Under the pieces are notes generated by a model, which was not told where the DNA came from, searched no databases, and worked only from the letters and a program-made list of their open reading frames with translations. A stretch of 54,348 nt of DNA from Candidatus Parcubacteria bacterium (GTDB taxonomy: Bacteria > Patescibacteriota > Patescibacteriia > Magasanikbacterales > UBA922). The position numbers and the translations under genes were made by a program. Location of the stretch: positions 1-54,348 of the forward strand of contig JABGUG010000011.1 in NCBI GenBank assembly GCA_018646705.1, written 5' to 3'. Below are positions 3,979 through 44,156 of the stretch, in pieces; within the stretch, counting starts at the first letter, position 1, and the number at the start of each line of letters is the position of its first letter.

Positions 3979-4007
3979 ATTAAACATTATTTTTGTAATA
4001 TTGTCAA
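3979..4007 (-). promoter_or_regulatory. sigma70-like promoter
   Basis: TTGACA (4007-4002), 17-nt spacer, TTTAAT (3984-3979; mismatch at the conserved -11 A). Confidence 0.55.
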
Positions 4008-4065
4008 TGGCACTTAGTCACAGTATGATTGCGCTATATAGGTAAATTTGATATTATATATCTAT

Positions 4066-5530: not shown

Positions 5531-6208
5531 ATGCTCGAAACGAGAAAAGAGAAAATTTTAGGTCTTATTGTAGACAGTTATACACAAAATGCAGAGCCTG
5601 TAGGCTCTAAATTTTTGGTAGAAGAATGTGGTCTAGAAGTGAGCGGAGCTACTGTACGAAATGAAATGCGAGATCTAGAAGAGCAGGGATATCTCACACA
5701 TCCTCATACATCATCTGGACGTATGCCGACAGAAATAGGGTATCAGTATTATGTCGAGCATATAATGAAACCAAAATCACTCCCAAAGAAAGTGCAGCAA
5801 GAATTAGAGTCTGCTTTGGATAGTGATAGAAAACAATATTTAAAAACAATTGCAAAGTATATTGCAGAAAAATCACAAAGCGCAGTTATTGTTGCATTTG
5901 ACGAAGATTCTCTGTATTACACAGGTATGAGTAATTTATTTTCTCAGCCAGAATTTCGTGATTATGCGTATACAGTAAGTGTCTCAACAATTTTTGATCA
6001 AGTTGAGGATAGAATTGAATCTGTTTTTGAACTATTGGATAAAGAAAATCCAAAAGTCTTAGTTGGGCAGAACAATCCGTTTGGTAATATGTGTGGTCTC
6101 GTTGGTGGAAGACTTGATGAAGGTGCTTTATTTGCAATACTTGGACCTCTTCGTATGGATTATGCGCAAGGTTCTTCATTTATAGATTATTTACAAAAAT
6201 CTTTATAA
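5531..6208 (+). CDS. hrcA: Heat-inducible transcription repressor HrcA (short form)
   Basis: EPVGSK, VSGATVRNEMRDLEEQGYLTHPHTSSGRMPT, ILGPLRMDY; precedes grpE/dnaK. Confidence 0.93.
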   Translation: MLETRKEKILGLIVDSYTQNAEPVGSKFLVEECGLEVSGATVRNEMRDLEEQGYLTHPHTSSGRMPTEIGYQYYVEHIMKPKSLPKKVQQELESALDSDRKQYLKTIAKYIAEKSQSAVIVAFDEDSLYYTGMSNLFSQPEFRDYAYTVSVSTIFDQVEDRIESVFELLDKENPKVLVGQNNPFGNMCGLVGGRLDEGALFAILGPLRMDYAQGSSFIDYLQKSL

Positions 6209-15347: not shown

Positions 15348-17133
15348 AACGTTTAAGAACAGCCAAATATGCTTCTGGTGGAATATTTACTTTTCCTTTA
15401 CCCATAGCCATCATTTTCTTTTTACCTTTCTTTTGTTTTTCGAGAACTTTTCGTTTACGTGTGACATCTCCACCATATAATCCTGCAGTAACATCTTTCC
15501 TCATGGCAGATATTCGTTCACCAGCAATTACTTTGCCGCCAATACATGCTTGAAGTTTTATTACGAACTGCTGTCTAGGTAGTGTATCTTTTAGAGAATT
15601 TATAATTTTTTTACCAATTTTAAATGCTCCATCACGCCAGACAAGAGTTGATAGTGCCTCTACTGATTCATCAGCTATTAAAATATCGAGCTTTACAACA
15701 TCAGTTTTTTGATAATTTTTAAAGTCATAATTAAGAGAGCCATATCCACTTGTTACTGTTTTCAATTTATCATAAAAATCAGTAATCAGAGATGCAAGTG
15801 GTATTTCATAATGTAGCATTGCTCGCTGATTTGAACCAGCACTTAAATATTCAGTATTCATATAGATTCCTTTTCTATCAGATATAAGACTCATTATATT
15901 TCCAATATATTCTTCAGGTGTAATTATATCCATAATCATCCATGGTTCTTCAATATGTTCAATTTGCTGCACCTCTGGTAAGTCTTGCGGACTCTTTACA
16001 ATAATATCTTTCCCATTTGTCTGAAATACATGATAAGCAACACTTGGAACAGTCGCAACAATATGGAGTCCGAATTCACGTCGTAAACGCTCTTGGAAAA
16101 TTTCTAAATGCAACATTCCAAGAAAGCCACACCTAAAACCAAAACCTAGGGCTTGGGAATGTTCTGGTTCATAAAACAGTGCCGAGTCATTGAGCTTCAA
16201 TTTATCCATCGCATCGCGCAAAGCATTGTAGTCGTCTCCTTCTTGCGGGAAGATTCCAGCAAACACCATTGGTTTTACTTCTTTATATCCGTCTAATGGT
16301 TTTTCTGCTTGGTTTTTTTCAAGAGTAACTGTATCACCAACACGGACATCTCCTAACTCTTTGAGACCACTTACAATGTAACCAATTTGTCCATTTTCAA
16401 GTATTCCATCTGAAATTAATTTAGGTGAATGGTGTCCTATGTCGAGTATTTCAGCAGTTCGTTTTGTCTTCATGAATTTTATTTGATCACCTTTTTTGAA
16501 TTCACCACTCATTACACGAACTGATGCTACTACGCCACGATAATCATCATAAAAAGAATCAAAGATAAGTGCACGTGGATTTTCATGGTCTTCTATTGGT
16601 GGTGACGGTACTTCTTCTATTACGCGTTCAAGTATTTTTTCTACACCTTCTCCAGTCTTTGCTGAACAACTTAGGATGTCTTCTTTTTTACATCCTATGA
16701 GGTGGATAATTTCCGCACTTACTTTTTCTACATCGGCATTTGGTAAGTCAATTTTATTGAGTACTGGAATAATTTTTAAATTTTGATCAAGAGCAAGGTA
16801 TAAGTTACCAATAGTTTGTGCTTGTACACCTTGTGTTGCGTCAACTAGAAGAATTGCACCTTCTACTGCTGCGAGTGACCTGGAAACTTCGTATGTGAAA
16901 TCTACATGTCCTGGAGTGTCAATCAGGTTTAGAGTGTGTTCTTTGTATTCCATACGTACTGGCTGCAATTTGATAGTGATACCACGTTCTTGTTCGAGCT
17001 CCATAGTATCGAGAATCTGAGTGGACATCTTTCTCTTTTCAATAGTTCCAGTCAATTCCAAAAATCGATCAGCCAGGGTAGATTTCCCGTGATCAATATG
17101 CGCGATAATACAGAAGTTTTTTATGTTTTTCAT
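15346..17133 (-). CDS. lepA: Translation elongation factor 4
   Basis: NFCIIAHIDHGKSTLADR, LIDTPGHVDF, LGFGFRCGFLG, YGGDVTRKRKVLEKQK. Confidence 0.98.
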   Translation of the reverse strand: MKNIKNFCIIAHIDHGKSTLADRFLELTGTIEKRKMSTQILDTMELEQERGITIKLQPVRMEYKEHTLNLIDTPGHVDFTYEVSRSLAAVEGAILLVDATQGVQAQTIGNLYLALDQNLKIIPVLNKIDLPNADVEKVSAEIIHLIGCKKEDILSCSAKTGEGVEKILERVIEEVPSPPIEDHENPRALIFDSFYDDYRGVVASVRVMSGEFKKGDQIKFMKTKRTAEILDIGHHSPKLISDGILENGQIGYIVSGLKELGDVRVGDTVTLEKNQAEKPLDGYKEVKPMVFAGIFPQEGDDYNALRDAMDKLKLNDSALFYEPEHSQALGFGFRCGFLGMLHLEIFQERLRREFGLHIVATVPSVAYHVFQTNGKDIIVKSPQDLPEVQQIEHIEEPWMIMDIITPEEYIGNIMSLISDRKGIYMNTEYLSAGSNQRAMLHYEIPLASLITDFYDKLKTVTSGYGSLNYDFKNYQKTDVVKLDILIADESVEALSTLVWRDGAFKIGKKIINSLKDTLPRQQFVIKLQACIGGKVIAGERISAMRKDVTAGLYGGDVTRKRKVLEKQKKGKKKMMAMGKGKVNIPPEAYLAVLKR

Positions 17134-18743
17134 ATGTTGTCAGCCTCGTTTACTTCTCCTTGAATATTGCGTAGTTTAAGCCATCTTTTTTTAAGGCTTT
17201 CGTGAAAGAGCCTCATTTCTTTGAGCTTAAGCTGGTTACAAATAAATCCATACACTAGAAGACCAATTGTACCAGATAGACCACCTTGTATCAAGATGCC
17301 CCAGAATTTTTGCATGTCTACGATTTGGGCAATAGGATACTTGAGAAGTTGGATGCTTAGTGCCATAAAAAATGCTGCAATTGAAATCTTTAGGAGCGTC
17401 ATAATAACTTTTGTCTCATGCAGTGTACCAAGTTTGAGATGCAAGAAAATCCAGAGTAGGGCCATTTGTAAAATCATGCTAAATGAGTAACCTGCAACCA
17501 ATCCGGTAATACCAAATATGTTTGATAAATAAATTGCTGCAATAACATTTGTACCAGCCGAAACAAGACCTATGATAAATGGTGTCCAAGTATTTTGCAG
17601 AGCATAGAAGCTTCGTGCAAGAAGTGGTATCAAACTCTGGGCAAATAAAGATATTGAGAAAAAGGCAAGTGCGTTCGCAGTAAGAATAGTTGCGTTCCAA
17701 TCAAATTCACCAGTACCAAGTACGATACGAACTATTTGTGCTCTGAGTAATAAAAAGATAATAGTAAGAGGAATTATTAGAAATAAAATTTGTCTTGTTG
17801 TGTCAGAGATACTTTTACTCATCTTTTTCTTATTTCCTTTTGCTGCGAGTCGAGCGAGAGTAGGGAATATGGCAATACCAAATGAAACACCAACAATACC
17901 AGATGGTACGGATTGTAAATTGTCAGCAAAACTAAATATTGCGATACTGCCAGATGCGAGTGTGGATGCAATAATAGTAATTACCAAAAAATTTATTTGT
18001 CGTGTAGCCATACCAAGTGTTCTTGGGATCATGAGTGCTCCAATTTTTCGTACGTATTTATCTTTCCAAAGAAAAAGTGCTTGATATTTAAATCCATTTT
18101 GTATAAGTGAGGGAATTTGAATGAGGAGATGAAATAAAGCTCCAAGTATTACTCCGTATGCAAGACCTGCTACTCCAAACATTGGTACAAATATTGTGAT
18201 ACCAAGTATGATACCAAGGTTATACATGATTGGTGTGAGCGAATAGACTAGGAATGCTCTGAAACTTTGTAATACACCACTTATCACACTGCTAATACCA
18301 AGTAGTATCGGACTGAGAAACATGATGCGTGTTAGCATGATAGTCATCTCAAATTTTTCTCCTTCAAATCCTGGTACAAGTAAGTGCATTAGGTTTGGTG
18401 TAAATACCATGAGGATTCCACATGTGACAACAAGTAGAATTCCCAAAATATTTATAACTGCATTTGTAACACGCCATGCTTGTTTTTTGTCTTTGGTAAG
18501 TAATTCTACAAAGATAGGTATGAAACCTGCCGAGAGCGCACCAACTATGAGAAGATTGTATACAAGGTCGGGAATTTTAAACGCAGCATAATATGCATCC
18601 ATCACATCACCCGCACCAAAATGGTGCGCAAAAAGCCTATCACGTACCATGCCTATGATCCTACTTATAAAAGACGCAGCACCTATTATTATTGCTGCGC
18701 CAGTAATGGTGTGAGATTGTCTATTTAATAATTTTTTAATCAT
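17130..18743 (-). CDS. murJ: Lipid II flippase MurJ
   Basis: SRIIGMVRDR, DAYYAAFKIPD, GALSAGFIP, many TM segments. Confidence 0.95.
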   Translation of the reverse strand: MIKKLLNRQSHTITGAAIIIGAASFISRIIGMVRDRLFAHHFGAGDVMDAYYAAFKIPDLVYNLLIVGALSAGFIPIFVELLTKDKKQAWRVTNAVINILGILLVVTCGILMVFTPNLMHLLVPGFEGEKFEMTIMLTRIMFLSPILLGISSVISGVLQSFRAFLVYSLTPIMYNLGIILGITIFVPMFGVAGLAYGVILGALFHLLIQIPSLIQNGFKYQALFLWKDKYVRKIGALMIPRTLGMATRQINFLVITIIASTLASGSIAIFSFADNLQSVPSGIVGVSFGIAIFPTLARLAAKGNKKKMSKSISDTTRQILFLIIPLTIIFLLLRAQIVRIVLGTGEFDWNATILTANALAFFSISLFAQSLIPLLARSFYALQNTWTPFIIGLVSAGTNVIAAIYLSNIFGITGLVAGYSFSMILQMALLWIFLHLKLGTLHETKVIMTLLKISIAAFFMALSIQLLKYPIAQIVDMQKFWGILIQGGLSGTIGLLVYGFICNQLKLKEMRLFHESLKKRWLKLRNIQGEVNEADNI

Positions 18744-18753
18744 GCTGTAAAAA

Positions 18754-19218
18754 GAAAATGGAAACTATAAATTTGAAATTAGGGGTTTTGTTTACGGGAG
18801 TATTGAGATTTTATTAGTCCATTTGTTTTAATATGTATGTCTTTTTTTATATTTTTTAAATTATTTTGTTCTTCTTTTGTGATAATATCTCGTTCGAGTA
18901 ACAATTCAACCCAGTGGTTTGCTTCAAGTAGAGAGGCTCTTGAATTATAATAAAATTTTATTTTATCTAAATAATGATATCGCCCATACCCTTCGGCCAG
19001 GTTTGCCCCAACTGAATCAGCAGATCTAATAAATTGATCACCTATGACTTTTTTAGTTTGCCAATTCATCTTTATGTAGACTTCCCAACTTCTCTTACTA
19101 TATTCTCGTGTTAATTTATATGCTTCTAAATCCTCTAGTTTGAAATATTCTTTCGCCATAAGGGTCAAGTTATTTATTAACTCACACCCCAATTTCTAAT
19201 TTCAATTTTCAAATTTCC
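18754..19218 (-). mobile_element. Four-helix-bundle cassette bounded by inverted GAAATTA-type heptamer arrays
   Basis: Arms 18754-18785 and 19187-19218 are reverse complements enclosing a single small gene. Confidence 0.6.
18779..19159 (-). CDS. Four helix bundle protein (TIGR02436 / 23S rRNA IVP / bAvd-like)
   Basis: LEDLEAYKL, DQFIRSADSVGANLAEGYGR, FYYNSRASLLE. Confidence 0.92.
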   Translation of the reverse strand: MAKEYFKLEDLEAYKLTREYSKRSWEVYIKMNWQTKKVIGDQFIRSADSVGANLAEGYGRYHYLDKIKFYYNSRASLLEANHWVELLLERDIITKEEQNNLKNIKKDIHIKTNGLIKSQYSRKQNP

Positions 19219-19223
19219 GTTGT

Positions 19224-20144
19224 TTACAACCACTTCTTCTTTTTCATTATAAAAATCACAAGCAATATAAATACGGTTAATCCGCCAAATAATGCCCATA
19301 CAAATTTTGGATCCTGAGCATAGGGGAGCTCTATGATATTCATACCGTATATTCCAGAAAGTAATGTAAGCGGGAGCAAGGCAGCAGACATTACAGTAAG
19401 TGCCCCAATTACCTTATTTGTTTTTTGGTTAATCAGAGATTCAACCGTAAGATGTAATCCCTCAATTGTTTCTTTGTATGAATCAGCAATTACCCAGAGT
19501 TTGTCTAGATAATCTTTTACATCATCAAAGTAAATACTCATACTTTCATCCATGAATGTTTTTCTTGTATGTGAAAGTGTTGATACGAGGTATCTTTGTG
19601 GATCTAGAATTCTACGGAAACTCAAAACATTTCGTCTGTGTAGCGCTAGCTGTCTGATCGCGTGCAAATCTTGTTCTCCTGCAAAAATTTCATTTTCAAT
19701 TCCAGAAATTTGTTTACCAATATTACTAAGCGTTGGTCGGGTTTGTCCATATAGAGATTCAAGTAATTTGTATAGTAAATATCCAGAACTTTTATTCATC
19801 CAATCCGCTTTTATTTTTCTATTGTTCATACAACGATAAAAGAAATTCTTTATTTCTTTGTTCTTGCCATGTTGAATAGTTATCACGTAGTTGTCTCCCA
19901 CAAACATATCTACCTCGTGAGGTACAATTTTTTTACTAGAAGATTTCCACTGAGGAAAGTGGAGTACTAAAAAGAGATATGTTTTATAAGCATCTAGCTT
20001 TGGGTTTTGGCTCTCACTTTGGATATCTTCAAGATCGAGGTGGTGAAACTTAAAATTCTTTTTTAAGTAATCAATTGATTCCTCGTTGACCTTGCTAATA
20101 TTTACCCAGGTGAGATCTCCCTGTTTGATTTCTTTGACAGACAT
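19224..20144 (-). CDS. corA: CorA family Mg2+/Co2+ transporter
   Basis: FHHLDLED, PLTLLSGIYGMN signature, two C-terminal TMs. Confidence 0.92.
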   Translation of the reverse strand: MSVKEIKQGDLTWVNISKVNEESIDYLKKNFKFHHLDLEDIQSESQNPKLDAYKTYLFLVLHFPQWKSSSKKIVPHEVDMFVGDNYVITIQHGKNKEIKNFFYRCMNNRKIKADWMNKSSGYLLYKLLESLYGQTRPTLSNIGKQISGIENEIFAGEQDLHAIRQLALHRRNVLSFRRILDPQRYLVSTLSHTRKTFMDESMSIYFDDVKDYLDKLWVIADSYKETIEGLHLTVESLINQKTNKVIGALTVMSAALLPLTLLSGIYGMNIIELPYAQDPKFVWALFGGLTVFILLVIFIMKKKKWL

Positions 20145-20155
20145 AAAATATAGAT

Positions 20156-20224
20156 TAGTAACTAGTAACTAGTAACTAGTAACTAGTTTTTACTTTCTAG
20201 TTACTAATTATTGATTACCAGTTA
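20156..20224. repeat. Inverted heptamer array (TAGTAAC)x4 with degenerate GTTACTA arm, empty
   Basis: Four exact TAGTAAC units at 20156-20183; CTAGTTA CTAATTA TTGATTA CCAGTTA at 20197-20224. Confidence 0.8.
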
Positions 20225-20893
20225 TTATTCAATTGGTATATTTACTTTGAAAGAAACATAGTCATTTTTTGTTGTGCTTGGATCATCCATCGTATATAGA
20301 ACTCCATCTATGTTTTCTTTTGTAAAAGTGAATTGTATAATATTTTTGTTTTTGCTATATGTACTAATTTCAAAATCATTTTTTCCAAGTTCTGTTTCAT
20401 AATATTCGAGAATAAAATCTTGGTCTGCAGACAAGTCAAGCCATTCTATTTCAAATGCATCTCTTTGGTCAGTAATTGGGTTTGTCATGAATGCAATAAA
20501 TTTTTCCCAATTTGTCATGCCTCTGGTTGTGACTGTTTGTGGAATATATTTGAATTCCTTATCAAGATATACTACAAATGGAGACAAGATAAGCTTTGGT
20601 AGGTAAGCTGCCAATTCTACACGTTTGCTGCGTTCTTTGCCGGATGTCTGTGTGATGCGTTCAACATTGCTTTCATCATATACAGGGATAACACTAGTGA
20701 ATTCCTCTGGCAAATCCTTGATTTCTTTTGTGCGTGGACCTATGGCAAATCGCAACAATAATAGAGATATAACAAACAAAACGGCAAAGCAACCGCATCC
20801 AGTGACACAGGTTCTTTTGACGCATGACCTTTTCTTGTTGAGCTCCTCGATTGGGGGCTCTTTTATTACTATTTTATCTATTTCTTGACGCAT
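20225..20893 (-). CDS. Hypothetical membrane-anchored protein
   Basis: Cys-rich CVTGCGC followed by a TM segment; 222 aa. Confidence 0.75.
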   Translation of the reverse strand: MRQEIDKIVIKEPPIEELNKKRSCVKRTCVTGCGCFAVLFVISLLLLRFAIGPRTKEIKDLPEEFTSVIPVYDESNVERITQTSGKERSKRVELAAYLPKLILSPFVVYLDKEFKYIPQTVTTRGMTNWEKFIAFMTNPITDQRDAFEIEWLDLSADQDFILEYYETELGKNDFEISTYSKNKNIIQFTFTKENIDGVLYTMDDPSTTKNDYVSFKVNIPIE

Positions 20894-20977
20894 ATTTTAT
20901 AAGGATATAATAGCAGAAATAGAGTTATTTGTACAGGTATTAGCTTGGTTTCACCAGGTATCTATGATAAGATAAAA

Positions 20978-21064
20978 GAAATTGGGAAATAGAAAATAGA
21001 AATTAGGTTTTTTAAGAAATATATTAATATAATCCCTAATTTCTATTTTCCAATTTCTAATTTT
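20978..21064. repeat. Inverted GAAATTA-type heptamer array, empty
   Basis: GAAATTGGGAAATAGAAAATAGAAATTAGG / CCTAATTTCTATTTTCCAATTTCTAATTTT; same family as the arms at 18754 and 19187. Confidence 0.8.
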
Positions 21065-21072
21065 ATTTTTTT

Positions 21073-22428
21073 ATGCATATACAATTTTGTGGAGCAGACA
21101 GAGAGGTTACAGGATCTTGTCATCTATTTGATACAGGAAAAAAGAAGATTCTTGTTGATTGTGGAATGTTTCAAGGGTCTAGTTTTAGTGAGAAAAAAAA
21201 TCATGATGATTTTCCATTTGATGCAAAGGAAGTCGATGTGCTCTTGGTGACACATGCGCATCTTGATCATGTGGGTAGAATACCAAAGCTTATCAAAGAT
21301 GGTTTTCAGGGTAAAATCTATATGACGAAGGGTACATGTGAGTTGGCACCTCTTATTTGGAAAGATGCTTATTACATCATGGAGTATAATAATCGTAAGT
21401 TTGGAAATCCTATTTTGTTTAGTGAGCAGGATGTTGCTGTTGCAGAATCATATTGTAAAGGAATTGATTATAATGAAAATGTTGATTTGGGGGAAGATAT
21501 TATCGCGGTTTTTAAGGAAGCAGGTCATATTTTTGGTGCAGCATTTATTGAGGTTGCTGCAGATGGAAAAAAGATTTGTTTTTCAGGAGATATTGGCAAT
21601 GAAGACGTGCCAATTCTCAAAGATACTCAAAACATGAGCGATGATGTAGATATACTTTTATGTGAATCGACTTATGGAAATCGCGTGCATGAAAGTGTTG
21701 ATGTACGTAGGGATATTATTTTGAATCTTATAAAAGAAGGGGCAAAAAAAGGTGGAACTATTATGGTACCTGCTTTTTCATTGGAAAGAACTCAAGAATT
21801 TTTGTATGAGTTAAATAAATTGAGTGAATATGATGAGACACTTCCAAATATTCCTATTTTTCTTGATAGTCCCTTGGCAATAAAAGCAACAAAGGTATAT
21901 AAAAAATATCCAGAATATTATGATGTGGAGGCTGCAAAGTTGCATGGAGCAGGGGATGATTTTCTAGATTTTCCACAACTTCAGTTGACCTACTCTAAGA
22001 GAGAATCACAAAAAATAAATCATATACCAGGACCAAAAATGGTGATCGCAGGTGCCGGAATGATGAATGGTGGTAGAATTTTACATCATGCAATTAGATA
22101 TTTATCTGATTCTAATTCCACACTTATAATTGTAGGTTATCAGGCAAATGGTACTCTTGGTCGTAAATTATATGAAGGATCAAAGCATGTGAAGGTAATG
22201 AGAGACGAAATAGATGTTCATTGTACTGTAAAGGCAATAGGTGCTTTGTCTGCTCATGGGGATCAAAAAAAATTACTTAAGTGGGTTGGTACTGGGAAGA
22301 AAAATCTAAAGGAAGTATATTGTATACATGGTGAACCTGTCGCAGCGACTGAATTGGCACATAGGATCAAAGATCAATATAAGGTAGATACATTTGTTCC
22401 AGGATATAAAGAGATTGTGGAAATATGA
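21073..22428 (+). CDS. MBL-fold beta-CASP ribonuclease
   Basis: GADREVTGSC, THAHLDHVG, AGHIFG, FSGDIG, ESTYG, SAHGD, IHGE. Confidence 0.92.
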   Translation: MHIQFCGADREVTGSCHLFDTGKKKILVDCGMFQGSSFSEKKNHDDFPFDAKEVDVLLVTHAHLDHVGRIPKLIKDGFQGKIYMTKGTCELAPLIWKDAYYIMEYNNRKFGNPILFSEQDVAVAESYCKGIDYNENVDLGEDIIAVFKEAGHIFGAAFIEVAADGKKICFSGDIGNEDVPILKDTQNMSDDVDILLCESTYGNRVHESVDVRRDIILNLIKEGAKKGGTIMVPAFSLERTQEFLYELNKLSEYDETLPNIPIFLDSPLAIKATKVYKKYPEYYDVEAAKLHGAGDDFLDFPQLQLTYSKRESQKINHIPGPKMVIAGAGMMNGGRILHHAIRYLSDSNSTLIIVGYQANGTLGRKLYEGSKHVKVMRDEIDVHCTVKAIGALSAHGDQKKLLKWVGTGKKNLKEVYCIHGEPVAATELAHRIKDQYKVDTFVPGYKEIVEI

Positions 22429-23213
22429 GGTTGGAAATTAGAAATTTGAAATTAGAAATTGGGATAATGCTTTTTGCTTTATTATTTTTTGTACCTGTCA
22501 TTGTTTGTGCAGAAGCTCTGGATACTGATGGAGATGGGCTTAGTGATGAGGATGAGCAAATGTATTATACAGATATTAATAATCCAGATACTGATGGAGA
22601 TGGGTACCCTGATGGGTTAGAAGTAAAAAATGGTTATTCACCACACAAAGGTCCTGGTGTGCAGATGCATCAAAATGATTATGATGGTGATGGACTCGGT
22701 GATTGGCTGGAAATATGGTTTAAGTCAGATATTGGAAAAATTGATACAGATGGAGATGGGCACAATGATTTTGATGAAGTCATGCGTGGGTTTAGTCCAT
22801 CAGAAAAAGATGGAGAAAAAAAGTTTAGACGTTGGATTGAAGTGGATCGCTCAAGACAAAGACTTTATTATTTTGTAAACAAAATTAAACTTTTGAATTT
22901 GGCTGTTTCAACGGGCAATCCATGGACAGAAACCCCAAAAGGGGATTTTGAAATCACAAAAATGATTCCGGAAAAAAGTTATGTTGGTGCTGATTATAAT
23001 TTGAAAGGTGTAAAGTGGAATATGTTATTTAATACGGGTGGTTATTATATTCACGGTACATATTGGCACAATGATTTTGGCATTCGAACACATTCCCATG
23101 GTTGTGTAAATCTCTCAACACAAGACGCTGGTCTTTTATATAAATATATGGATATTGGCGTGCCTATACGTATATATGGCGATACTCCGAAGAATAGGGC
23201 GGTGGAAAGTTAA
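22425..23213 (+). CDS. L,D-transpeptidase (YkuD) with Ca-binding DxDGDG repeats
   Basis: DTDGDG repeats; YYIHGTYWHN...SHGCVNL catalytic motif. True start may be a few codons downstream. Confidence 0.88.
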   Translation: MRLEIRNLKLEIGIMLFALLFFVPVIVCAEALDTDGDGLSDEDEQMYYTDINNPDTDGDGYPDGLEVKNGYSPHKGPGVQMHQNDYDGDGLGDWLEIWFKSDIGKIDTDGDGHNDFDEVMRGFSPSEKDGEKKFRRWIEVDRSRQRLYYFVNKIKLLNLAVSTGNPWTETPKGDFEITKMIPEKSYVGADYNLKGVKWNMLFNTGGYYIHGTYWHNDFGIRTHSHGCVNLSTQDAGLLYKYMDIGVPIRIYGDTPKNRAVES

Positions 23214-23337
23214 AAATAAAGATTAAGGAGTAGAAATTAACGAATAAGAAACTCACATGTGTGAGTTTTTTAATTTTCATCAACACTTGATTTTGAGAAT
23301 ATAGCATGTTATATTCTTATTGTCTTTTAGCCAAATT

Positions 23338-25389
23338 ATGCCAAAATTCAAATTGAAATCAAAATTTAAACCAGCAGGTTCTCAACCAGGCGCTATCAAG
23401 GGTCTAATTTCTGGTTTAGATGGCGGTATGGATAATCAAACTCTTCTTGGTGTAACTGGGTCTGGAAAGACATTTACTATTGCCAATGTGATTGAGAAAG
23501 TTCAGATGCCAACACTTGTGATTGCTCACAATAAAACTCTGGCAGCACAACTTTGTAATGAATTTCGTGAATTTTTCCCTGACAATGCGGTAGAATATTT
23601 TGTATCATATTATGATTATTATCAGCCAGAGGCATACATGCCAGGTAGTGATACATATATAGAAAAGGAGGCTCAGATAAATGAAGAAATTGATAGACTT
23701 CGTCATGCCTGTACACAAGCATTGCTTTCACGAAAAGATGTCATAATTGTTGCATCAGTTTCTGCAATTTACAATTTGGGAAATCCTCTTGATTATGAAA
23801 AAGCCGTAATTCATTTACGACGTGGTGAAAAACTTGATCGTCGTGGCATGATGGAACAATTGGTAAAAATGCAATATGAGCGTACAAATCTAGATCTTAA
23901 ACGGGGGCAATTTCGTATGCGTGGGCAAGTTTTTGAAATTATGCCTGTAAACGAGGAGAGGATTTATCGTTTTGAAGTAGGAAAATATATTAATCTTATA
24001 GAACTTGTAGATCCAGTGACGAGAAAAGTAAAAAATGAAATTGAAGATGCCTGGTTTTTTCCTGCAAAACATTATGTTGTGTCAGAAGATGAAAAAGAAG
24101 AAGCATTTGGTACTATCCAAAAAGAATTGAAAGAACGACTTGAATATTTTAAAAAAGAGGGTAAGGTTCTTGAATATGAACGTTTGAAACGCAAAACTAA
24201 ATATGATCTCGAGATGATAAAAAATATCGGATATTGTAGTGGAATAGAAAATTATTCACGACATTTTGATAAGAGAGAAGAGGGTGAGGCAGCTTTTACA
24301 TTGTTGGATTATTTCAAATGGGGTACAGATGGTGAAGAGCGAGGAAAAGGAAAATTTTTGACGATAATTGATGAATCACATGTGACTCTTCCACAGATTA
24401 GAGGAATGTTCAATGGGGATAGGGCGCGAAAAGATACTCTTATAGAGCATGGATTTAGATTGCCAAGCGCCAGAGACAATAGACCTCTTAAATTTGATGA
24501 GTTTACGGCACGTGTTGGTCAGACGGTTTTTTTGTCAGCTACTCCTGCAGATTATGAATATAATAATAGCGACAAAATAGTAGAACAAATTGTACGACCA
24601 ACTGGTCTCGTGGATCCAGAAATTATTGTACGTCCTGTAACAGAAAGAAAAGGGAAAAATATTTCTCAGGTAGAGGATGTTATAGAAAGGATCAAGAATA
24701 GAATAGAGAAGGGTGAGAGAACTCTTGTCACAACACTTACCAAAAAAATGGCAGAAGATCTGACAGATTATCTCAAAGATCAAAAAATTAAAGTACAATA
24801 TCTACATAGTGGTGTTAGTACTATTGAGAGAATTGAAGTTATTGCAAAATTAAGAAAAGGGGAGACAGATGTAATTGTTGGTGTGAATCTTTTGCGCGAA
24901 GGTCTGGATATTCCAGAAGTTTCTTTTGTGGCAATTCTTGATGCAGACAAAGAAGGTTTTCTTCGCAATGAAACAAGTCTTATTCAGACAATTGGTCGTG
25001 CAGCACGTAATGTAAATGGTCAGGTGGTAATGTACGCTGACACCATAACAAAATCTATTGAAAAGGCTATCAGCGAGACAACACGTCGTCGTGATATTCA
25101 GCTTGCGTATAATAAAAAACATGGCATCACACCAAAGACTATTGAAAAGAGTATTCGAAATATTCTTGAAGAATTTGGTATTTCTGCATCAAAAGCAAAG
25201 ACGAGTAAAGGTGGTAAGCGTCGTGAACAATTGCTTAAGCTTGATTTGTCTGGAGATGGACGTCCAATGGAAGAAATTATAAAAGATAAAGAAACGCAGA
25301 TGAAAGATGCAGCAAAAAAATTAGAGTTTGAACTAGCAGCAATTTTGAGAGACGAATTAAGAGAACTTAAATTACAGAATAAAAAATAA
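23338..25389 (+). CDS. uvrB: Excinuclease ABC subunit B
   Basis: LLGVTGSGKT, FVSYYDYYQPEAY, IIDESHVT, QTIGRAARN, C-terminal UVR domain. Confidence 0.98.
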   Translation: MPKFKLKSKFKPAGSQPGAIKGLISGLDGGMDNQTLLGVTGSGKTFTIANVIEKVQMPTLVIAHNKTLAAQLCNEFREFFPDNAVEYFVSYYDYYQPEAYMPGSDTYIEKEAQINEEIDRLRHACTQALLSRKDVIIVASVSAIYNLGNPLDYEKAVIHLRRGEKLDRRGMMEQLVKMQYERTNLDLKRGQFRMRGQVFEIMPVNEERIYRFEVGKYINLIELVDPVTRKVKNEIEDAWFFPAKHYVVSEDEKEEAFGTIQKELKERLEYFKKEGKVLEYERLKRKTKYDLEMIKNIGYCSGIENYSRHFDKREEGEAAFTLLDYFKWGTDGEERGKGKFLTIIDESHVTLPQIRGMFNGDRARKDTLIEHGFRLPSARDNRPLKFDEFTARVGQTVFLSATPADYEYNNSDKIVEQIVRPTGLVDPEIIVRPVTERKGKNISQVEDVIERIKNRIEKGERTLVTTLTKKMAEDLTDYLKDQKIKVQYLHSGVSTIERIEVIAKLRKGETDVIVGVNLLREGLDIPEVSFVAILDADKEGFLRNETSLIQTIGRAARNVNGQVVMYADTITKSIEKAISETTRRRDIQLAYNKKHGITPKTIEKSIRNILEEFGISASKAKTSKGGKRREQLLKLDLSGDGRPMEEIIKDKETQMKDAAKKLEFELAAILRDELRELKLQNKK

Positions 25390-25390
25390 T

Positions 25391-26044
25391 ATGAAGAAAT
25401 TTTTAAAATTTATTTTTTTAGCATTTTTCCTTTTTGGAATATTTCTTTTTGGTGCTTTGTTTAGGTCTCAAACTTTGTTTACAGAATATACATCTAAAAT
25501 TTACTCTGATATTGTAGATGTTCCGATTTCAGATGTCGCATTAGTTTTTGGAGCAGGGGTTCGCCCTGATGGGAGTTTGACGGATACATTGCGCGATCGT
25601 GTATTGACTTCTATAGAGTTGTACGATGATGGAAAAGTAAAAAAAATACTTATGACAGGTGATAATGGTAGAAAAGAATATGATGAGGTTACTGCTATGA
25701 AGGAGTTTGCTATAGAGTATGGTATTTCTGAAGAAGATATAGTTCTTGATTACGCAGGGTTTCGAACATATGATAGTTGTTATAGGGCTCGTGATATATT
25801 TGGATTAGATAAATATAAGGTTATAGCTGTATCTCAAGAGTTTCATTTATCAAGAATTTTGTATACATGTAATAATTTTGATATAAATGCGTCGGGTTAT
25901 ATTGCAGACAAAAATACGTATGTATACGCACAACTTTGGCAAGGTAGAGAATTTTTGGCACGATTTAAAGCATGGATGGATATAGAGATATTTAGGCTGA
26001 AACCGAAGTTTCTTGGTAAGCAAGAATGTATATTTGAATGTTAA
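25391..26044 (+). CDS. SanA/YdcF (DUF218) family protein
   Basis: ALVFGAGV, LMTGDNG, YDEVTAM, DYAGFRTYDSC, SQEFHLSR, REFLAR. Confidence 0.9.
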   Translation: MKKFLKFIFLAFFLFGIFLFGALFRSQTLFTEYTSKIYSDIVDVPISDVALVFGAGVRPDGSLTDTLRDRVLTSIELYDDGKVKKILMTGDNGRKEYDEVTAMKEFAIEYGISEEDIVLDYAGFRTYDSCYRARDIFGLDKYKVIAVSQEFHLSRILYTCNNFDINASGYIADKNTYVYAQLWQGREFLARFKAWMDIEIFRLKPKFLGKQECIFEC

Positions 26045-30928: not shown

Positions 30929-32217
30929 AAAATCTTTCACAAGTCCCTGGTATTTATCTGTTTTATAACAAAGACAAGGAACTTATATATGTGGGAAAAG
31001 CAACTAGTTTGCGGTCACGTGTGGGATCGTATTTTTCTGGTCGTCGTACATCGCGTCCGATCGAACAAATGATTCATGAAGTTACAAGTATTAAGACCAA
31101 AGAAACAGACTCAGTTTTGGAAGCAGTCATTCTCGAAGGAAGTTATATAAAAAAATATCGACCAAAATATAATATAGATTGGAAGGATGATAAGTCGTGG
31201 AATTATATTGTGGTAACCAAAGAAGACTATCCCAAGGTCAAGACGCTTAGAGCCCATGAATATGAGAAAGAGAAAGGGGATTATTTATATATATTTGGAC
31301 CTTACCCTGGATTAAAAACGAGGGAAATGATGAAGTTATTAGAACGTTTATTTTTTATATCCACATGTAAACCAAATGCAAAACGTGAATGTTTGTATCA
31401 TCAGATGGGGCAGTGTCTTGGTGTGTGTACAGGAGAAATAAATGCAAAAGAATACAAGCAAAAAGTAATTCGTCCACTTGCAATGTTTTTGCGTGGAAAT
31501 AAAAAAGGTGTGATAAAAAATTTGGAAAAGAAAATGAAAGAGGTGAGTAAGGCCGAAGATTTTGAAGAAGCAGCACGATTGCGAAATCAGATTTCAGCAT
31601 TGCAGCGAATCCAAGACATCGCATTATTAAATAAAACATTTTTTACAGCAGGCGCCCGAAGGGACAGCTCTAGAGCTGTCCATACGCGCGTGTTTGAAAA
31701 CCAACGCATCGAAGGATACGACATATCAAACCTAGGAACGTCAGGCAAGGTCGGTTCGATGGTCGTGTTTGATTCACATGGTCCAGTGAAGTCTGAATAT
31801 AGAAAGTTTAAAATAAAAGGCGTGGAAGGGCAGAGTGATGTGGATTGTTTGGCAGAAATTTTGGAGCGTCGTTTGCAACATGTAGAGACGCAAAATATTG
31901 CGTCTGTACATGGTTTGCAAAATATTGCGTCTGTACAAAATAAAAGCGCATGGCAGCTGCCCAATATAATCCTCGTCGACGGCGGTCTTCCTCAAGTAAA
32001 TCGTGCAAAGAAAATTTTGAAAGAAAATAAATTTGATATTCCGGTTGTAGGTATTGCAAAAGGTCCGGCAAGAAAAAAGAATGAATTTATATTAGGATCA
32101 AAGAAAAAAGATTTTGTGGATTGGGTGAATGAAAATCAAGGTCTGTTAATTAGAGTTAGAGATGAGGCGCATAGATTTGCGATTAAGTATCAGAGGATTT
32201 TGAGGAAGATTAACTAG
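30904..32217 (+). CDS. uvrC: Excinuclease ABC subunit C (no C-terminal HhH)
   Basis: PGIYLF...YVGKATSLRSRV GIY-YIG, UVR domain, RIEGYDIS, LVDGG, RDEAHRFA. Confidence 0.9.
   Translation: MATFENKIKNLSQVPGIYLFYNKDKELIYVGKATSLRSRVGSYFSGRRTSRPIEQMIHEVTSIKTKETDSVLEAVILEGSYIKKYRPKYNIDWKDDKSWNYIVVTKEDYPKVKTLRAHEYEKEKGDYLYIFGPYPGLKTREMMKLLERLFFISTCKPNAKRECLYHQMGQCLGVCTGEINAKEYKQKVIRPLAMFLRGNKKGVIKNLEKKMKEVSKAEDFEEAARLRNQISALQRIQDIALLNKTFFTAGARRDSSRAVHTRVFENQRIEGYDISNLGTSGKVGSMVVFDSHGPVKSEYRKFKIKGVEGQSDVDCLAEILERRLQHVETQNIASVHGLQNIASVQNKSAWQLPNIILVDGGLPQVNRAKKILKENKFDIPVVGIAKGPARKKNEFILGSKKKDFVDWVNENQGLLIRVRDEAHRFAIKYQRILRKIN
31658..31685. repeat. REP-like palindrome inside uvrC
   Basis: GGACAGCTCTAGAGCTGTCC perfect 20-bp palindrome (31662-31681). 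Confidence 0.7.
31882..31937. repeat. GTAG-type REP plus partial tandem copy inside uvrC
   Basis: GTAGAGACGCAAAATATTGCGTCTGTAC (31882-31909); GCAAAATATTGCGTCTGTACA repeated 27 nt later. Confidence 0.8.
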
Positions 32218-34247: not shown

Positions 34248-34331
34248 AGTTCATAAAGTTAAAAAGTCTATAAAGTTCATAAAGAACCAGTAGACGCCTT
34301 TTAACTTTCTAACTTTATAAACTTTTATACT
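34248..34331. repeat. Inverted AAAGTT(T/C)AT-type array, empty
   Basis: AGTTCATAAAGTTAAAAAGTCTATAAAGTTCATAAAG / CTTTTAACTTTCTAACTTTATAAACTTTTATACT. Confidence 0.75.
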
Positions 34332-34709: not shown

Positions 34710-34770
34710 GATATTCAGATAATCCAGATTTACAGATATTCTATCCGTAAATCTGGATTATCCGGAAATC
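34710..34770. repeat. Inverted CAGAT/ATC(C/T)G array, empty
   Basis: GATATTCAGATAATCCAGATTTACAGATA / TATCCGTAAATCTGGATTATCCGGAAATC. Confidence 0.75.
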
Positions 34771-38742: not shown

Positions 38743-39207
38743 ATGAAAGAAAAAATGTCACGTGGTAAATTAATATTTCTTGTTGTATTTTTTGTTGCGG
38801 CTGGTTTCTTATTTATTTTTCAAAGAGTTTATTGGCCACACACTGTTGTTGAGCTAAAAGATCAGAAGTTGAACGTGCTTGTGGCTAAAAATATTTACCA
38901 ACAACAAAAAGGGCTTGGAGGACGTGAAAGTTTGGCTCCATATGATGGAATGCTTTTTCCTTATTCTCTGCTCGGGAAACCTACTATGGTTATGAGAGAT
39001 ATGGAGTTTTCAATTGACATTGTGTGGTTTTTGGATGGGGAAGTAGTAGATTTTGCCCCACAAGTTCCTACTGAACCGGGGAGGGCTGAATTTGAATATA
39101 TAAGATACTATCCTAGAACAGAGGCAAATTTGGTTCTAGAATTGCCAGGAGGGTGGGCAGATGAGCATAATCTAAGGATAGGGGACCGTATAGTTCATAG
39201 CCAGTAG
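38743..39207 (+). CDS. DUF192 family protein
   Basis: KGLGGRESL, DGMLF, MRDMEFSIDIVW, VLELPGG. Confidence 0.88.
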   Translation: MKEKMSRGKLIFLVVFFVAAGFLFIFQRVYWPHTVVELKDQKLNVLVAKNIYQQQKGLGGRESLAPYDGMLFPYSLLGKPTMVMRDMEFSIDIVWFLDGEVVDFAPQVPTEPGRAEFEYIRYYPRTEANLVLELPGGWADEHNLRIGDRIVHSQ

Positions 39208-39243
39208 TTCATAGCCAATACTATTGGCTAATGGCTATTGGCT
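39191..39243. repeat. Inverted TAGTTCA/TAGCCAA heptamer array, empty
   Basis: TAGTTCATAGCCAGTAGTTCATAGCCAATA / CTATTGGCTAATGGCTATTGGCT; supplies the DUF192 stop codon. Confidence 0.8.
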
Positions 39244-41034: not shown

Positions 41035-41486
41035 TAGTTCATAGCCAATAGTTCATAGCCAATAGTGACCTAGTCTTTAGCGATACAGAGATTCCCTATA
41101 CCTATAGAGCATTCTAAGTACTTCATCCAATAGACTATCTAGCTTTGAACATTGGTTTGTAGTAATAAATTCAAGTTGTTTTGATATTATGATTTGTGTT
41201 TCAAGTTCTGTGGCAGACCCAAATGATATGTTTACAAATTGTGCATTCTCTTTTTTATTTTTTCTTGCATATCCTTCAGCAATGTTTGATGCAATGGATA
41301 CACTGCATCTCCTCATTTGACTTACAAGGCCAAATTTTTCTTCATTTGGAAATGTAGATGTCAATAAATATACTTCTTTAATTAAATTGATAGATTTTTG
41401 CCAAACTATCAAATCTTTGTAAGTTTCCATAAGATGTAATTAATAATAACCACACCCTATGAACTATTGGCTACTGGCTATGAACT
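41035..41486 (-). mobile_element. Four-helix-bundle cassette bounded by inverted TAGTTCA/TAGCCAA arrays, between ybaB and recR
   Basis: Arms 41035-41066 and 41457-41486 enclose a single small gene. Confidence 0.65.
41077..41430 (-). CDS. Four helix bundle protein (TIGR02436 / 23S rRNA IVP family)
   Basis: YKDLIVWQKS, FPNEEKFGLVSQMRRCSVSIASNIAEG, GSATELETQ. Confidence 0.95.
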   Translation of the reverse strand: METYKDLIVWQKSINLIKEVYLLTSTFPNEEKFGLVSQMRRCSVSIASNIAEGYARKNKKENAQFVNISFGSATELETQIIISKQLEFITTNQCSKLDSLLDEVLRMLYRYRESLYR

Positions 41487-41487
41487 C

Positions 41488-43272: not shown

Positions 43273-43314
43273 AACGTAGTTTGAAGATTTATGGAAGTTT
43301 AATTCTTTGAAACG

Positions 43315-43393
43315 TAGTTCATAGCCAGTAGTTCATAGCCAGTAGAATATTGAAATATATTCCTATGAACTATTGGCTATTGGCCATGAACTA
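43315..43393. repeat. Inverted TAGTTCA/TAGCCAR heptamer array, empty
   Basis: Arms 43315-43345 and 43363-43393 with a 17-nt spacer; near-identical to the arms of the 41035-41486 cassette. Confidence 0.85.
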
Positions 43394-44071: not shown

Positions 44072-44156
44072 TAGCCAAAAGCCAATAGTTCGGAGCCAAT
44101 AATGTGCAGTGTGTGGTTTGCATTTCTGTTGGCTATGAACTATTGGCTATGAACTA
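44072..44156. repeat. Inverted TAGTTCA/TAGCCAA array, empty
   Basis: TAGCCAAAAGCCAATAGTTCGGAGCCAATA / TGTTGGCTATGAACTATTGGCTATGAACTA. Confidence 0.8.

What the first reader, a model, noticed from the sequence alone, without database searches (positions are those of the whole stretch)
18754..21064. Filled and empty forms of a GAAATTA-heptamer cassette 2 kb apart
Seen: a four-helix-bundle gene between corA and murJ is bounded by inverted (GAAATTA)n-type arms, and its stop codon lies inside one arm. The same arms occur with only a 27-nt spacer at 20978-21064. A lone arm at 22434-22463 lies in frame at the LD-transpeptidase 5' end (LEIRNLKLEI). Inference: the arms would pair in the operon mRNA or in ssDNA and loop out the cargo gene, like the 23S rRNA intervening sequences in which this protein family was first described.
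Basis: partly seen in the sequence, partly recalled or inferred. Interest (0 to 1): 0.75.

Follow-up and report, generated by a model that had tools for sequence, protein, structure and literature searches.

The report
Four-helix-bundle gene cassette with repeat arms
A small gene of unknown function, known from ribosomal-RNA "intervening sequences", sits here between two housekeeping genes inside a pair of mirror-image short-repeat arrays, and the same repeats occur without the gene elsewhere in the genome, which suggests the protein recognises its own repeats.

Summary
A PF05635/TIGR02436 gene (18779-19159, minus strand) lies between corA and murJ. It is enclosed by inverted arms of about 30 nt built from GAAAT-core heptamers, and its stop codon lies in the 3' arm. 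A gene-less hairpin of the same arms is at 20978-21064. A lone array at 22434-22463 is in frame with the ykuD ORF.

The case is not isolated.
- All 6 complete copies in this 1.04-Mb genome have such arms, each with its own repeat unit, and those units recur as gene-less hairpins.
- Four sampled relatives without the gene have almost no such hairpins.
- The sister species lacks the cargo at corA-murJ, so the cassette was acquired.
- Across phyla the core motif follows the protein subfamily: AAAGT, GAAAT or AGGGA, with 0 off-diagonal cases in 232 loci.
- Cassettes are almost always co-oriented with their neighbours.

Best reading: an IVS-type module outside rRNA whose ring-forming protein recognises its own tandem repeats. 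The layout resembles REP/RAYT and NTS/Ssn. The arms probably pair in the operon transcript. RNA-level excision is untested, and a G·U wobble test gave no support for it.

Earlier agents of this scan noted the same architecture on at least 17 other genomes. My literature searches found no paper describing it.

The parts
19187..19221 (-). 5' arm of cassette 1: four GAAAT-core units (GAAATTT GAAAATT GAAATTA GAAATTG) ending in GGGG
   Evidence: (I4, I10, I15)
19160..19186 (-). leader between 5' arm and ATG. It carries GGGGTGTG. A GGGTGTG motif occurs next to the 5' arm in 4 of the 6 complete G000 cassettes (inside it in 3, outside it in the C16 copy). C11 has GGGGTAC and C29 has none.
18779..19159 (-). 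four-helix-bundle protein gene (126 aa from ATG 19159). PF05635 / TIGR02436, with the RxxxSxxxNxxE motif. Stop TAA at 18779-18781.
18757..18786 (-). 3' arm of cassette 1, complementary to the 5' arm. It contains the stop codon.
20978..21064 (.). gene-less hairpin of the GAAAT family (29-nt arms, 27-nt loop) between divergent genes 20225-20893(-) and 21073-22428(+). Absent at the orthologous site of the sister species.
22434..22463 (+). lone GAAAT array (GAAATTA GAAATTT GAAATTA GAAATTG), in frame at the 5' end of the YkuD (L,D-transpeptidase) ORF. The sister species has a diverged array of the same length.
20150..20233 (.). hairpin of another family, (TAGTAAC)4.6 plus inverted partner, between corA and the upstream 222-aa gene. 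The sister species has (TAGTAAG)3 with a compensating partner at the same site.
   Evidence: (I5)
41457..41487 (-). 5' arm of cassette 2 (TAGTTCA/TAGCCAR units)
41077..41430 (-). second PF05635 gene of the window (134 bits), wedged between ybaB (41488-41784) and recR (40431-41030)
41035..41066 (-). 3' arm of cassette 2
39191..39243 (.). gene-less hairpin of the cassette-2 family (TAGTTCATAGCCA)
43314..43392 (.). gene-less hairpin of the cassette-2 family
44080..44156 (.). gene-less hairpin of the cassette-2 family
34248..34323 (.). gene-less hairpin of the AAAGTT family, whose gene-bearing copy is on contig C11
10088..10179 (.). AAAGTT / AACTTT arrays (same family as the C11 cassette)

Best explanation
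The corA-murJ insert is a self-contained, horizontally acquired cassette of the rRNA intervening-sequence type living outside rRNA. It consists of a 5' array of four GAAAT-core units, a short leader, a 126-aa four-helix-bundle (PF05635) gene, and a complementary 3' array that begins at the stop codon.

Shown: the cassette sits on the same strand as corA and murJ and is one of 7 such genes in the genome. Each complete copy has its own repeat unit, and those units also occur as gene-less hairpins and lone arrays.

Inferred:
(1) The protein forms a ring, since relatives are homopentamers, and it recognises the tandem 5-nt cores of its own arms and of the dispersed copies. Recognition is probably of single-stranded RNA or DNA, roughly one core per subunit. 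In layout this is the counterpart of RAYT with REP sequences and of Ssn nucleases with NTS hairpins.
(2) In the operon transcript the two arms pair into a stem of about 30 bp that encloses the cargo. RNase III could cut this stem, as it does in 23S rRNA IVSs. That would release the cargo mRNA and separate the flanking cistrons. Protein binding to the 5' array would compete with stem formation.
(3) Gene-less hairpins such as 20978-21064 are further targets or miniature relatives of the same family. They are not excision scars.

How the cassette moves is unknown.
For: Anatomy.

Within the genome:
- All 6 complete copies in G000 have inverted arms, with inner distances of 357-399 nt.
- Arms of the 7 copies recur at 8, 13, 7, 3, 2, 7 and 5 sites. 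Permuted-heptamer controls average 0.1-0.8. Fourteen foreign arms gave 5 sites in all.
- No Y1 transposase and no RT were found. RNase III is present.

Acquisition:
- PF05635 occurs in 9 of 21 related genomes.
- The sister species (CorA 97% identical) has no cargo at corA-murJ. It carries a gene-less hairpin of another family there, the family of its own C51 cassette.
- Seven further relatives have plain short junctions.
- The focal protein has no relative above 42% identity among 22 IVPs of the relatives. Proteins 47-63% identical occur in other phyla.

Link between gene and hairpins:
- IVP-negative genomes G010, G015, G003 and G014 hold 0, 0, 1 and 0 periodic hairpins in 726 kb.
- IVP-positive genomes G017, G018, G001 and G000 hold 11, 3, 7 and 27 in 200, 200, 249 and 1037 kb. 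At least some of the hairpins in each positive genome carry the units of that genome's own cassettes; G017 also has families with no identified gene.

Specificity:
- In 232 loci from many phyla the core follows the protein subfamily: AAAGT 49/78, GAAAT 30/80, AGGGA 32/74. All six off-diagonal cells are 0. The opposite polarity occurs in 1, 0 and 0 loci.
- Arm scores exceed the 95th percentile of shuffled flanks in 72/80 and 67/74 loci.
- Mismatches between arms are 4.4% at core columns and 21% at spacer columns.
- Arrays most often hold 4 cores, then 5 (63 and 35 of 215). Spacing is variable, with 7 > 8 > 9 > 10 > 11.

Transcription context:
- Between co-directional neighbours, cassettes are co-oriented in 117 of 119 cases.
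- All 7 G000 copies share the strand of at least one adjacent gene, and 5 of the 6 complete copies share it with both.

Folding: the arms pair in the MFE and centroid structures.

Precedents:
- S23p is a homopentameric toroid, and the IVS stem is cut by RNase III (PMC4990558, passages).
- 2rld holds 5 chains.
- The Avd pentamer has an Avd-binding RNA element (bioRxiv 10.1101/2023.10.23.563531, passages).
- Ssn proteins bind their own flanking hairpin repeats (PMC11893778, passages).
Against: - No binding, cleavage or expression data exist.
- Motif-subfamily matching and the matching gene-less copies could arise from co-inheritance of gene and arms alone.
- The wobble test shows no excess of sense-strand G·U-compatible mismatches: 142 v 132, p = 0.59, and 294 of 568 mismatches pair on neither strand. 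There is thus no positive signature of RNA-level stem selection.
- The whole-cassette fold is not better than shuffles (z = -0.59).
- Four to five cores per arm fits a pentamer, but it fits the length needed for an RNase III stem equally well.
- Some hairpin families of G000 (GACTTAG, AAGGCTT, ATTAAGA) have no identified gene. The genome is 97% complete in 64 contigs, and one copy is cut by a contig end.
- Some cassettes lack detectable arms: 8 of 80 and 7 of 74 loci, and 8 of 25 relatives' copies score below 30.
- The positive/negative genome comparison uses only 4 + 4 related genomes, each sampled in part.
Confidence: 0.5

Rival explanations
1. A DNA-level selfish element. The protein acts on single-stranded DNA hairpins, as RAYT or Ssn do, to spread or protect the repeats. 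The gene-less hairpins are MITE-like non-autonomous copies. RNA pairing is incidental.
For: - The repeat-gene-repeat layout with dispersed cognate copies matches REP/RAYT and NTS/Ssn.
- Distribution is patchy and congeners differ in repertoire. Only 1 IVP is orthologous between G000 (7 copies) and G001 (3 copies).
- The wobble test shows no RNA-strand signature.
- Strict co-orientation with genes could equally reflect replication-strand bias.
- Metagenome contigs hold further hairpins of the same arms with other loops (table 5c).
Against: - The fold has no known catalytic activity.
- No transposase, RT or Y1 enzyme was found in the genome.
- No target-site duplication is evident at the junction.
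- Cassettes are kept at syntenic sites across Terracidiphilus/Acidobacteriaceae species.
- Loops of gene-less copies show no clear homology to the cassette interior.
- No relatives were found in viral contigs.
Confidence: 0.27
2. The hairpins are host RNA-processing, stability or terminator elements. The four-helix-bundle genes merely insert into, or are tolerated in, pre-existing hairpin loops, with no protein-repeat recognition.
For: - All 27 periodic hairpins of G000 are intergenic, and 18 of 23 lie between co-directional genes.
- rRNA IVSs replace hairpin tetraloops (PMC4990558).
- Hairpins occupy the same intergenic sites in both congeners.
Against: - Relatives without the gene have essentially no such hairpins (1 in 726 kb).
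- The core motif follows the protein subfamily across phyla with 0 off-diagonal cases.
- The co-directional share equals the genomic baseline of 79%.
- Only 1 of 23 hairpins is at a convergent junction, so they are not typical terminators.
Confidence: 0.1
3. It is a remnant accessory gene (Avd) of a diversity-generating retroelement.
For: Family relationship: the second cassette's protein gives a weak NF033474 hit of 37.9 bits against a cut-off of 80. PF05635 is common next to DGR RTs (PMC10053308 passages).
Against: No RVT_1 was found anywhere in the 97%-complete genome. The focal protein has no Avd-model hit. The flanks are corA and murJ, with no template or variable repeats.
Confidence: 0.02

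Closest known systems
ORF-bearing intervening sequences (IVS) of 23S rRNA (Coxiella burnetii helix 45, Leptospira; S23p ORF)
   Same: - Same protein family (PF05635).
- The ORF is enclosed by terminal inverted repeats that form a stem of about 28-30 bp.
- Similar size: 465 nt here against 428-444 nt.
- Sporadic, horizontally transferred distribution.
- The element is transcribed as part of a longer host RNA (PMC4990558 passages).
   Different: - Here it lies between protein-coding genes of an operon, not in rRNA.
- The arms are tandem arrays of a short core.
- Each paralog has its own array family, with gene-less copies dispersed in the genome.
- RNase III excision is not shown here.
REP/REPIN sequences with their RAYT gene (recalled from my own knowledge; also discussed in PMC11893778)
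   Same: A gene flanked by inverted copies of a repeat that is dispersed in the same genome as gene-less hairpins or doublets. Each paralog is paired with its own repeat family.
   Different: The gene is not a Y1/HUH transposase, and none was found in the genome. The repeats are periodic arrays of 5-nt cores, not single palindromes.
Ssn GIY-YIG single-strand nucleases with NTS/SRM hairpin repeats (PMC11893778)
   Same: The repeat-gene-repeat configuration. Each homolog is flanked by its own variant repeat. Many gene-less copies lie outside genes. The protein is small and single-domain (passages).
   Different: The fold differs: a four-helix-bundle ring with no known nuclease motif. The substrate (RNA or DNA) is unknown. 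The arms enclose the gene as one long stem rather than as separate small hairpins.
Avd of diversity-generating retroelements
   Same: A homologous pentameric, positively charged barrel that binds a defined RNA element (bioRxiv 10.1101/2023.10.23.563531 passages).
   Different: There is no reverse transcriptase or template/variable repeat here. The Avd model score is below cut-off or absent.
TRAP-type ring proteins reading spaced triplet repeats in RNA, and cyanobacterial STRR heptamer repeats (both recalled, not tested)
   Same: An oligomeric ring combined with tandem short cores at variable spacing. Unexplained intergenic heptamer arrays.
   Different: No homology.

Membership tests
PF05635 / TIGR02436 four-helix-bundle protein (23S rRNA IVP, S23p) | HMM match above the curated cut-off | tested here: met
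   Pfam 77.9 bits against 33.8. TIGR02436 73.5 bits against 24.
PF05635 / TIGR02436 four-helix-bundle protein (23S rRNA IVP, S23p) | Conserved R-x3-S-x3-N-x2-E motif (consensus GxxRxxxSxxxNxxE quoted in PMC3936711) | tested here: met
   The focal protein reads IRSADSVGANLAEG. R37 and E48 are invariant and S41 and N45 nearly invariant in alignment A1.
PF05635 / TIGR02436 four-helix-bundle protein (23S rRNA IVP, S23p) | Homopentameric toroid | not testable with these tools
   Indirect only. The closest solved chain, 2rld, has 5 chains in its entry (E = 1.3e-6). The Xanthomonas S23p pentamer is cited in PMC4990558.
ORF-bearing rRNA intervening sequence (IVS) | Inserted in a helix of a 23S (or 16S) rRNA gene | tested here: not met
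   The insert lies between CorA and MurJ genes. No rRNA match was found in the window.
ORF-bearing rRNA intervening sequence (IVS) | Terminal inverted repeats forming a stem that encloses the S23p ORF; element of about 430-450 nt | tested here: met
   Arms of about 30 nt, 465 nt arm to arm. The arms pair in the MFE and centroid folds.
ORF-bearing rRNA intervening sequence (IVS) | Excised from the precursor RNA by RNase III | not testable with these tools
   An RNase III gene is present at C49:414-809. No RNA data are available.
ORF-bearing rRNA intervening sequence (IVS) | Sporadic distribution / horizontal transfer | tested here: met
   Present in 9 of 21 relatives. Absent at this junction in the sister species and in 7 other relatives. 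The nearest proteins are in other phyla.
REP/RAYT (REPtron, REPIN) | Gene flanked by inverted copies of a repeat that is dispersed gene-less in the same genome | tested here: met
REP/RAYT (REPtron, REPIN) | The gene encodes a Y1 (HUH) transposase | tested here: not met
   The gene is PF05635. No PF01797 match was found in the genome.
Ssn / NTS | GIY-YIG nuclease between its cognate hairpin repeats | tested here: not met
   The layout is analogous, but the protein has no GIY-YIG hit.
DGR accessory protein Avd | Adjacent reverse transcriptase with template/variable repeats; match to the Avd equivalog model | tested here: not met
   No RVT_1 in the genome. The focal protein has no NF033474 hit.
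MITE / IS-type transposon | Transposase in the autonomous copy and target-site duplication | tested here: inconclusive
   No transposase domain in the cargo. No direct repeat is evident outside the arms when compared with the relatives' empty junctions (by eye).

The most novel reading that the evidence does not exclude
PF05635 proteins are programmable, sequence-specific rings that read tandem 5-6-nt cores in single-stranded nucleic acid, about one core per subunit with flexible 7-11-nt spacing. Gene plus arrays form a third class of repeat-gene-repeat module beside REP/RAYT and NTS/Ssn, and this class is spread across many bacterial phyla. On this reading the 23S rRNA intervening sequences are one special case of the module. 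It would also account for much of the unexplained excess of intergenic heptamer arrays in bacteria.
Probability: 0.4. Interest if true: 0.9.

Novelty: new variant of a known kind. Interest (0 to 1): 0.8.

Why it matters
The function of the PF05635/S23p family has been unknown since its description in rRNA intervening sequences. The data here give it a concrete, testable partner: its own flanking tandem repeats. The core motif follows the protein subfamily across phyla, and gene-less copies appear only in the sampled genomes that carry the gene.

If binding is confirmed, it would have several consequences. The family would supply small proteins with diverse, predictable nucleic-acid specificities. 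It would explain why these genes turn up wedged inside unrelated operons, including cas operons (PMC3936711). It would also connect rRNA IVSs with dispersed short-period repeats.

Tried and rejected
- RNA evidence: no RNA holder was listed for window 17000-23500.
- DNA contigs of 4 runs from 4 studies:
  - The filled form is present without differences in two of them (one piece spans 17361-19675, another 18135-21973).
  - No joint skips the cargo.
  - Joints at the arms reflect other hairpins of the same family.
- Vehicles: no relatives in viral contigs with the focal protein or with alignment A2. One distant plasmid hit at 34.5% identity.
- Rfam: only a tRNA in the window, and nothing at E <= 1 in 39600-44200.
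- No 23S rRNA is assembled in G000, so an rRNA-borne copy could not be sought.
- Flanks of the 240 loci show conservation only within Acidobacteriaceae and none across phyla. None of the sampled cassettes therefore looks rRNA-borne.
- Alignment A1 was too diverse for the search for related loci, so I used the closer alignment A2.
- The mismatched-pair control was uninformative because all loci share the AAAGT core. Shuffled-flank controls replaced it.
- The orientation census of lone arrays was too noisy, with loose patterns hitting A-rich coding sequence.
- The idea that 20978-21064 is a deletion derivative of the filled cassette rests on only a weak AT-rich resemblance of the loop to the leader (D3: 72% over 60 nt, half of it arm). 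I did not adopt it.
- My initial idea that the lone array is non-coding, with translation starting at ATG 22467, was weakened by the sister species' ORF.
- Literature searches that found no description of repeat arms around non-rRNA copies. No supplements of any paper were consulted.
Full report
**1. The observation**

The window is contig C45 of a 1.04-Mb, 36% G+C, 64-contig genome. ORF 18779-19192 on the minus strand matches PF05635 (23S_rRNA_IVP, 77.9 bits against a cut-off of 33.8) and TIGR02436 'four helix bundle protein'. Its likely start is the ATG at 19159, giving 126 aa. It lies between CorA (19224-20144) and MurJ (17130-18743), all on the minus strand.

The gene is enclosed by inverted arms at about 18757-18786 and 19187-19221. 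On the transcribed strand the 5' arm reads GAAATTT GAAAATT GAAATTA GAAATTG GGG. The 3' arm begins CCCC-TAA-TTTC, so the stop codon lies in the arm.

A hairpin with 29-nt arms of the same type and a 27-nt loop is at 20979-21063. It folds far better than shuffles (z = -4.1 and -4.5, with 0 of 200 shuffles as good).

A lone array, GAAATTA GAAATTT GAAATTA GAAATTG, is at 22434-22463. It is 94% complementary to the 5' arm (I4) and in frame with the YkuD ORF that starts at 22425.

**2. The case is general within the genome**

G000 has 7 PF05635 matches. All 6 complete copies are flanked by inverted arms with inner distances of 357-399 nt. The seventh copy is cut by a contig end and shows a 3' array.

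Each copy has a different unit: GAAATTA, TAGTTCA/TAGCCAA, TAAAGTT, GGTAAAA, AAGATTA, AATTTAC-type and CTAGTMA-type. The window holds a second cassette (gene 41077-41430, arms 41035-41066 and 41457-41487) wedged between ybaB and recR.

The arms recur elsewhere in the genome at 8, 13, 7, 3, 2, 7 and 5 sites (own arms included). Thirty unit-permuted controls per arm average 0.1-0.8, and the real count is reached by 0 of 30 controls for six arms and by 3 of 30 for the AAGATTA arm. Fourteen arms taken from relatives' cassettes gave 5 sites in total.

A hairpin scan found 94 hairpins, 27 of them with arms of period 7-9.
- None of the 27 lies inside a crude ORF call, although 86% of the genome is coding.
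- 18 lie between co-directional genes, 4 at divergent junctions and 1 at a convergent junction; 4 touch contig ends.
- The co-directional share equals the genomic baseline of 79%.

**3. Presence and absence**

PF05635 occurs in 9 of 21 related genomes (G000 included), with 1-7 matches each.

Contig C43 of the sister species G001 is collinear with window 15381-26029 at about 80-84% nucleotide identity, and its CorA is 97% identical. The two species compare as follows.

| Site | G000 (this window) | G001 (sister species) |
|---|---|---|
| corA-murJ junction | GAAAT cassette with cargo | about 80 nt, no cargo, a gene-less hairpin of CATG-type heptamers, the same family as the arms of its own C51 cassette |
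| Upstream of corA | (TAGTAAC)4 hairpin | (TAGTAAG)3 hairpin with a compensating partner arm |
| 20978 hairpin | present | absent |
| ykuD 5' end | regular GAAAT array | diverged array of the same length, in frame in a 262-aa ORF with no internal Met |

Seven more distant relatives have short plain corA-murJ junctions, and one has lost synteny.

Only one IVP (the C11 copy, 91% identical) is orthologous between the two congeners. All other pairs are at most 46% identical. The focal protein is at most 42% identical to any of 22 intact IVPs in the relatives. Proteins 47-63% identical occur in Gammaproteobacteria, Bacteroidota, Saccharibacteria, Elusimicrobia, Nitrospirae and other groups.

**4. 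Hairpins go with the gene**

I sampled partial sequence of eight genomes with the same detector.

| Genome | PF05635 | Bases sampled | Periodic hairpins |
|---|---|---|---|
| G010 | absent | 180 kb | 0 |
| G015 | absent | 200 kb | 0 |
| G003 | absent | 146 kb | 1 (atypical) |
| G014 | absent | 200 kb | 0 |
| G017 | present | 200 kb | 11 |
| G018 | present | 200 kb | 3 |
| G001 | present | 249 kb | 7 |
| G000 | present | 1037 kb | 27 |

In each positive genome some of the hairpins carry the units of that genome's own cassettes. Examples in G017 are CGTAAAG and TACGTTC; G017 also has families with no identified gene. These genomes are kin and were only partly sampled, so this is an association and not a test.

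**5. The core motif follows the protein subfamily across phyla**

Three searches of one-genome-per-species contigs returned 80 loci each, for three G000 proteins.
- Inverted-arm scores exceed the 95th percentile of shuffled flanks in 72 of 80 loci (focal type) and 67 of 74 (41k type).
- For the C11 type the median score is 36, against 17 for the direct-orientation control.
- Among 25 copies from the close relatives, 17 score at least 30.

I counted loci with at least 3 copies of a core upstream and at least 3 of its complement downstream.

| Protein subfamily | Loci | AAAGT | GAAAT | AGGGA |
|---|---|---|---|---|
| C11 type | 78 | 49 | 0 | 0 |
| Focal type | 80 | 0 | 30 | 0 |
| 41k type | 74 | 0 | 0 | 32 |

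The opposite polarity occurs in 1, 0 and 0 loci.

- Within the 41k type, proteins 69-79% identical keep TAGTTCA/TAGCCA, while those about 50% identical have AGGGAC-type or TTAGACT units.
- Spacing between cores is not fixed: 7 nt in 356 cases, 8 in 197, 9 in 132, 10 in 110 and 11 in 50. 'Heptamer' is thus the mode, not the rule.
- Arrays most often hold 4 cores, then 5 (63 and 35 of 215 on the 5' side; 66 and 47 on the 3' side).
- Mismatches between the two arms are 4.4% at core columns and 21% at spacer columns.

A short core that stays conserved while spacers and spacing drift, and that changes with the protein, is what a repeated binding site looks like. Co-inheritance of gene and arms could give the same table.

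**6. Orientation**

Where both neighbours are co-directional, the cassette is co-oriented in 47, 51 and 19 cases and opposed in 1, 1 and 0. In G000 all 7 copies share the strand of an adjacent gene. This fits dependence on read-through transcription. It would also fit a replication-strand bias.

**7. RNA pairing**

The arms pair in the MFE and centroid structures of the 496-nt cassette RNA, but the whole fold is no better than shuffles (z = -0.59). RNase III is encoded in the genome.

A strand test was null. Mismatches that would be G·U in the sense RNA number 142, against 132 that would be G·U only in the antisense (p = 0.59), and 294 of 568 mismatches pair on neither strand. The register ambiguity of tandem repeats weakens this test. 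Even so, there is no positive evidence for RNA-level selection of the stem.

**8. What it is not**

- No reverse transcriptase was found in the genome, so a DGR role is unlikely.
- No Y1 transposase was found.
- No target-site duplication is evident.
- No viral relatives were found.

**9. Comparison with what is known**

The closest known thing is the ORF-bearing IVS of 23S rRNA. The Coxiella IVS is 428-444 nt long, has a 28-bp terminal stem cut mid-stem by RNase III, and carries an S23p ORF. S23p of Xanthomonas is a homopentameric toroid (PMC4990558, passages). The cassette here meets every anatomical feature except the defining one, location in rRNA.

In layout and genome-wide behaviour it parallels REP/RAYT and, most closely, NTS-ssnA-NTS. 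There each small protein binds its own flanking hairpin repeat, and hundreds of gene-less copies exist (PMC11893778, passages). The protein fold here is unrelated to both.

PF05635 genes wedged inside cas operons have been reported without mention of arms (PMC3936711, passage). CPR rRNA insertions carrying this domain have also been reported (PMC11270868, passage). The related Avd pentamer binds a defined RNA element (bioRxiv 10.1101/2023.10.23.563531, passages).

My searches found no paper describing repeat arms around non-rRNA copies or their cognate gene-less families. No supplements were consulted.

Earlier agents of this scan noted the same architecture on at least 17 other genomes, and also the REP-like analogy. 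I reached the reading independently before those look-ups and tested it here on this genome and its relatives.

**10. Verdict**

| Inference | My estimate |
|---|---|
| Discrete, acquired IVS-type cassette | about 0.9 |
| The protein recognises its own tandem cores | about 0.55-0.6 |
| RNase III excision from the operon transcript | about 0.4-0.5 |
| The composite statement | 0.5 |

Noticed in passing
window 39640-40450 and 43400-44080: Two G+C-rich islands (up to 53% and 62% against 36% for the genome) sit next to TAGTTCATAGCCA hairpins (39191-39243; 43314-43392 and 44080-44156). The second island is bracketed by two such hairpins and holds a 106-aa ORF (43565-43885). That ORF has no Pfam hit, was not found in 20 relatives, and the region has no Rfam match.
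   Followed up: partly
window 34718-34762; also C12:3336, C32:1477, C32:8924, C32:52007, C42:7750: A separate hairpin family with arms of about 22 nt (GATAATCCAGATTTACAGAT type) that are not short-period arrays. At least 6 copies in the genome.
   Followed up: no
window 31881-31937; many other contigs (e.g. C4:474, C7:12439, C48:13755): The commonest palindrome family (A-run, GTAGAGACGCAA, inverted partner, T-run) looks like bidirectional terminators.
   Followed up: no
L015 (G009:C15) and L016 (G008:C81): Two relatives' cassettes lie next to tRNA genes. In L015 tRNA-like sequence adjoins both sides, so the cassette sits between two tRNA genes. In L016 it adjoins the downstream side only (read by eye; not checked with a tRNA finder).
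   Followed up: no
L290-L355 (Terracidiphilus / Acidobacteriaceae loci): Cassettes at syntenic positions in different species carry units that differ in concert in all repeats of both arms (AGGGACT, GGGACC, AGGCAAT). This implies homogenisation or co-evolution with the protein.
   Followed up: partly
window 20146-20236 v G001:C43 about 5600-5740: At the same intergenic site the unit TAGTAAC (G000) is TAGTAAG in the sister species in every repeat, and the partner arm is changed to match.
   Followed up: partly
window 3610-3699 (-): A tRNA gene (45.8 bits) lies inside the mechanical ORF call 3553-4017.
   Followed up: no
window 22521-22777: Four TSP3-type calcium-binding repeats (DTDGDG) in the YkuD protein appear as a 66/90-nt direct DNA repeat (D1, 4).
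   Followed up: no
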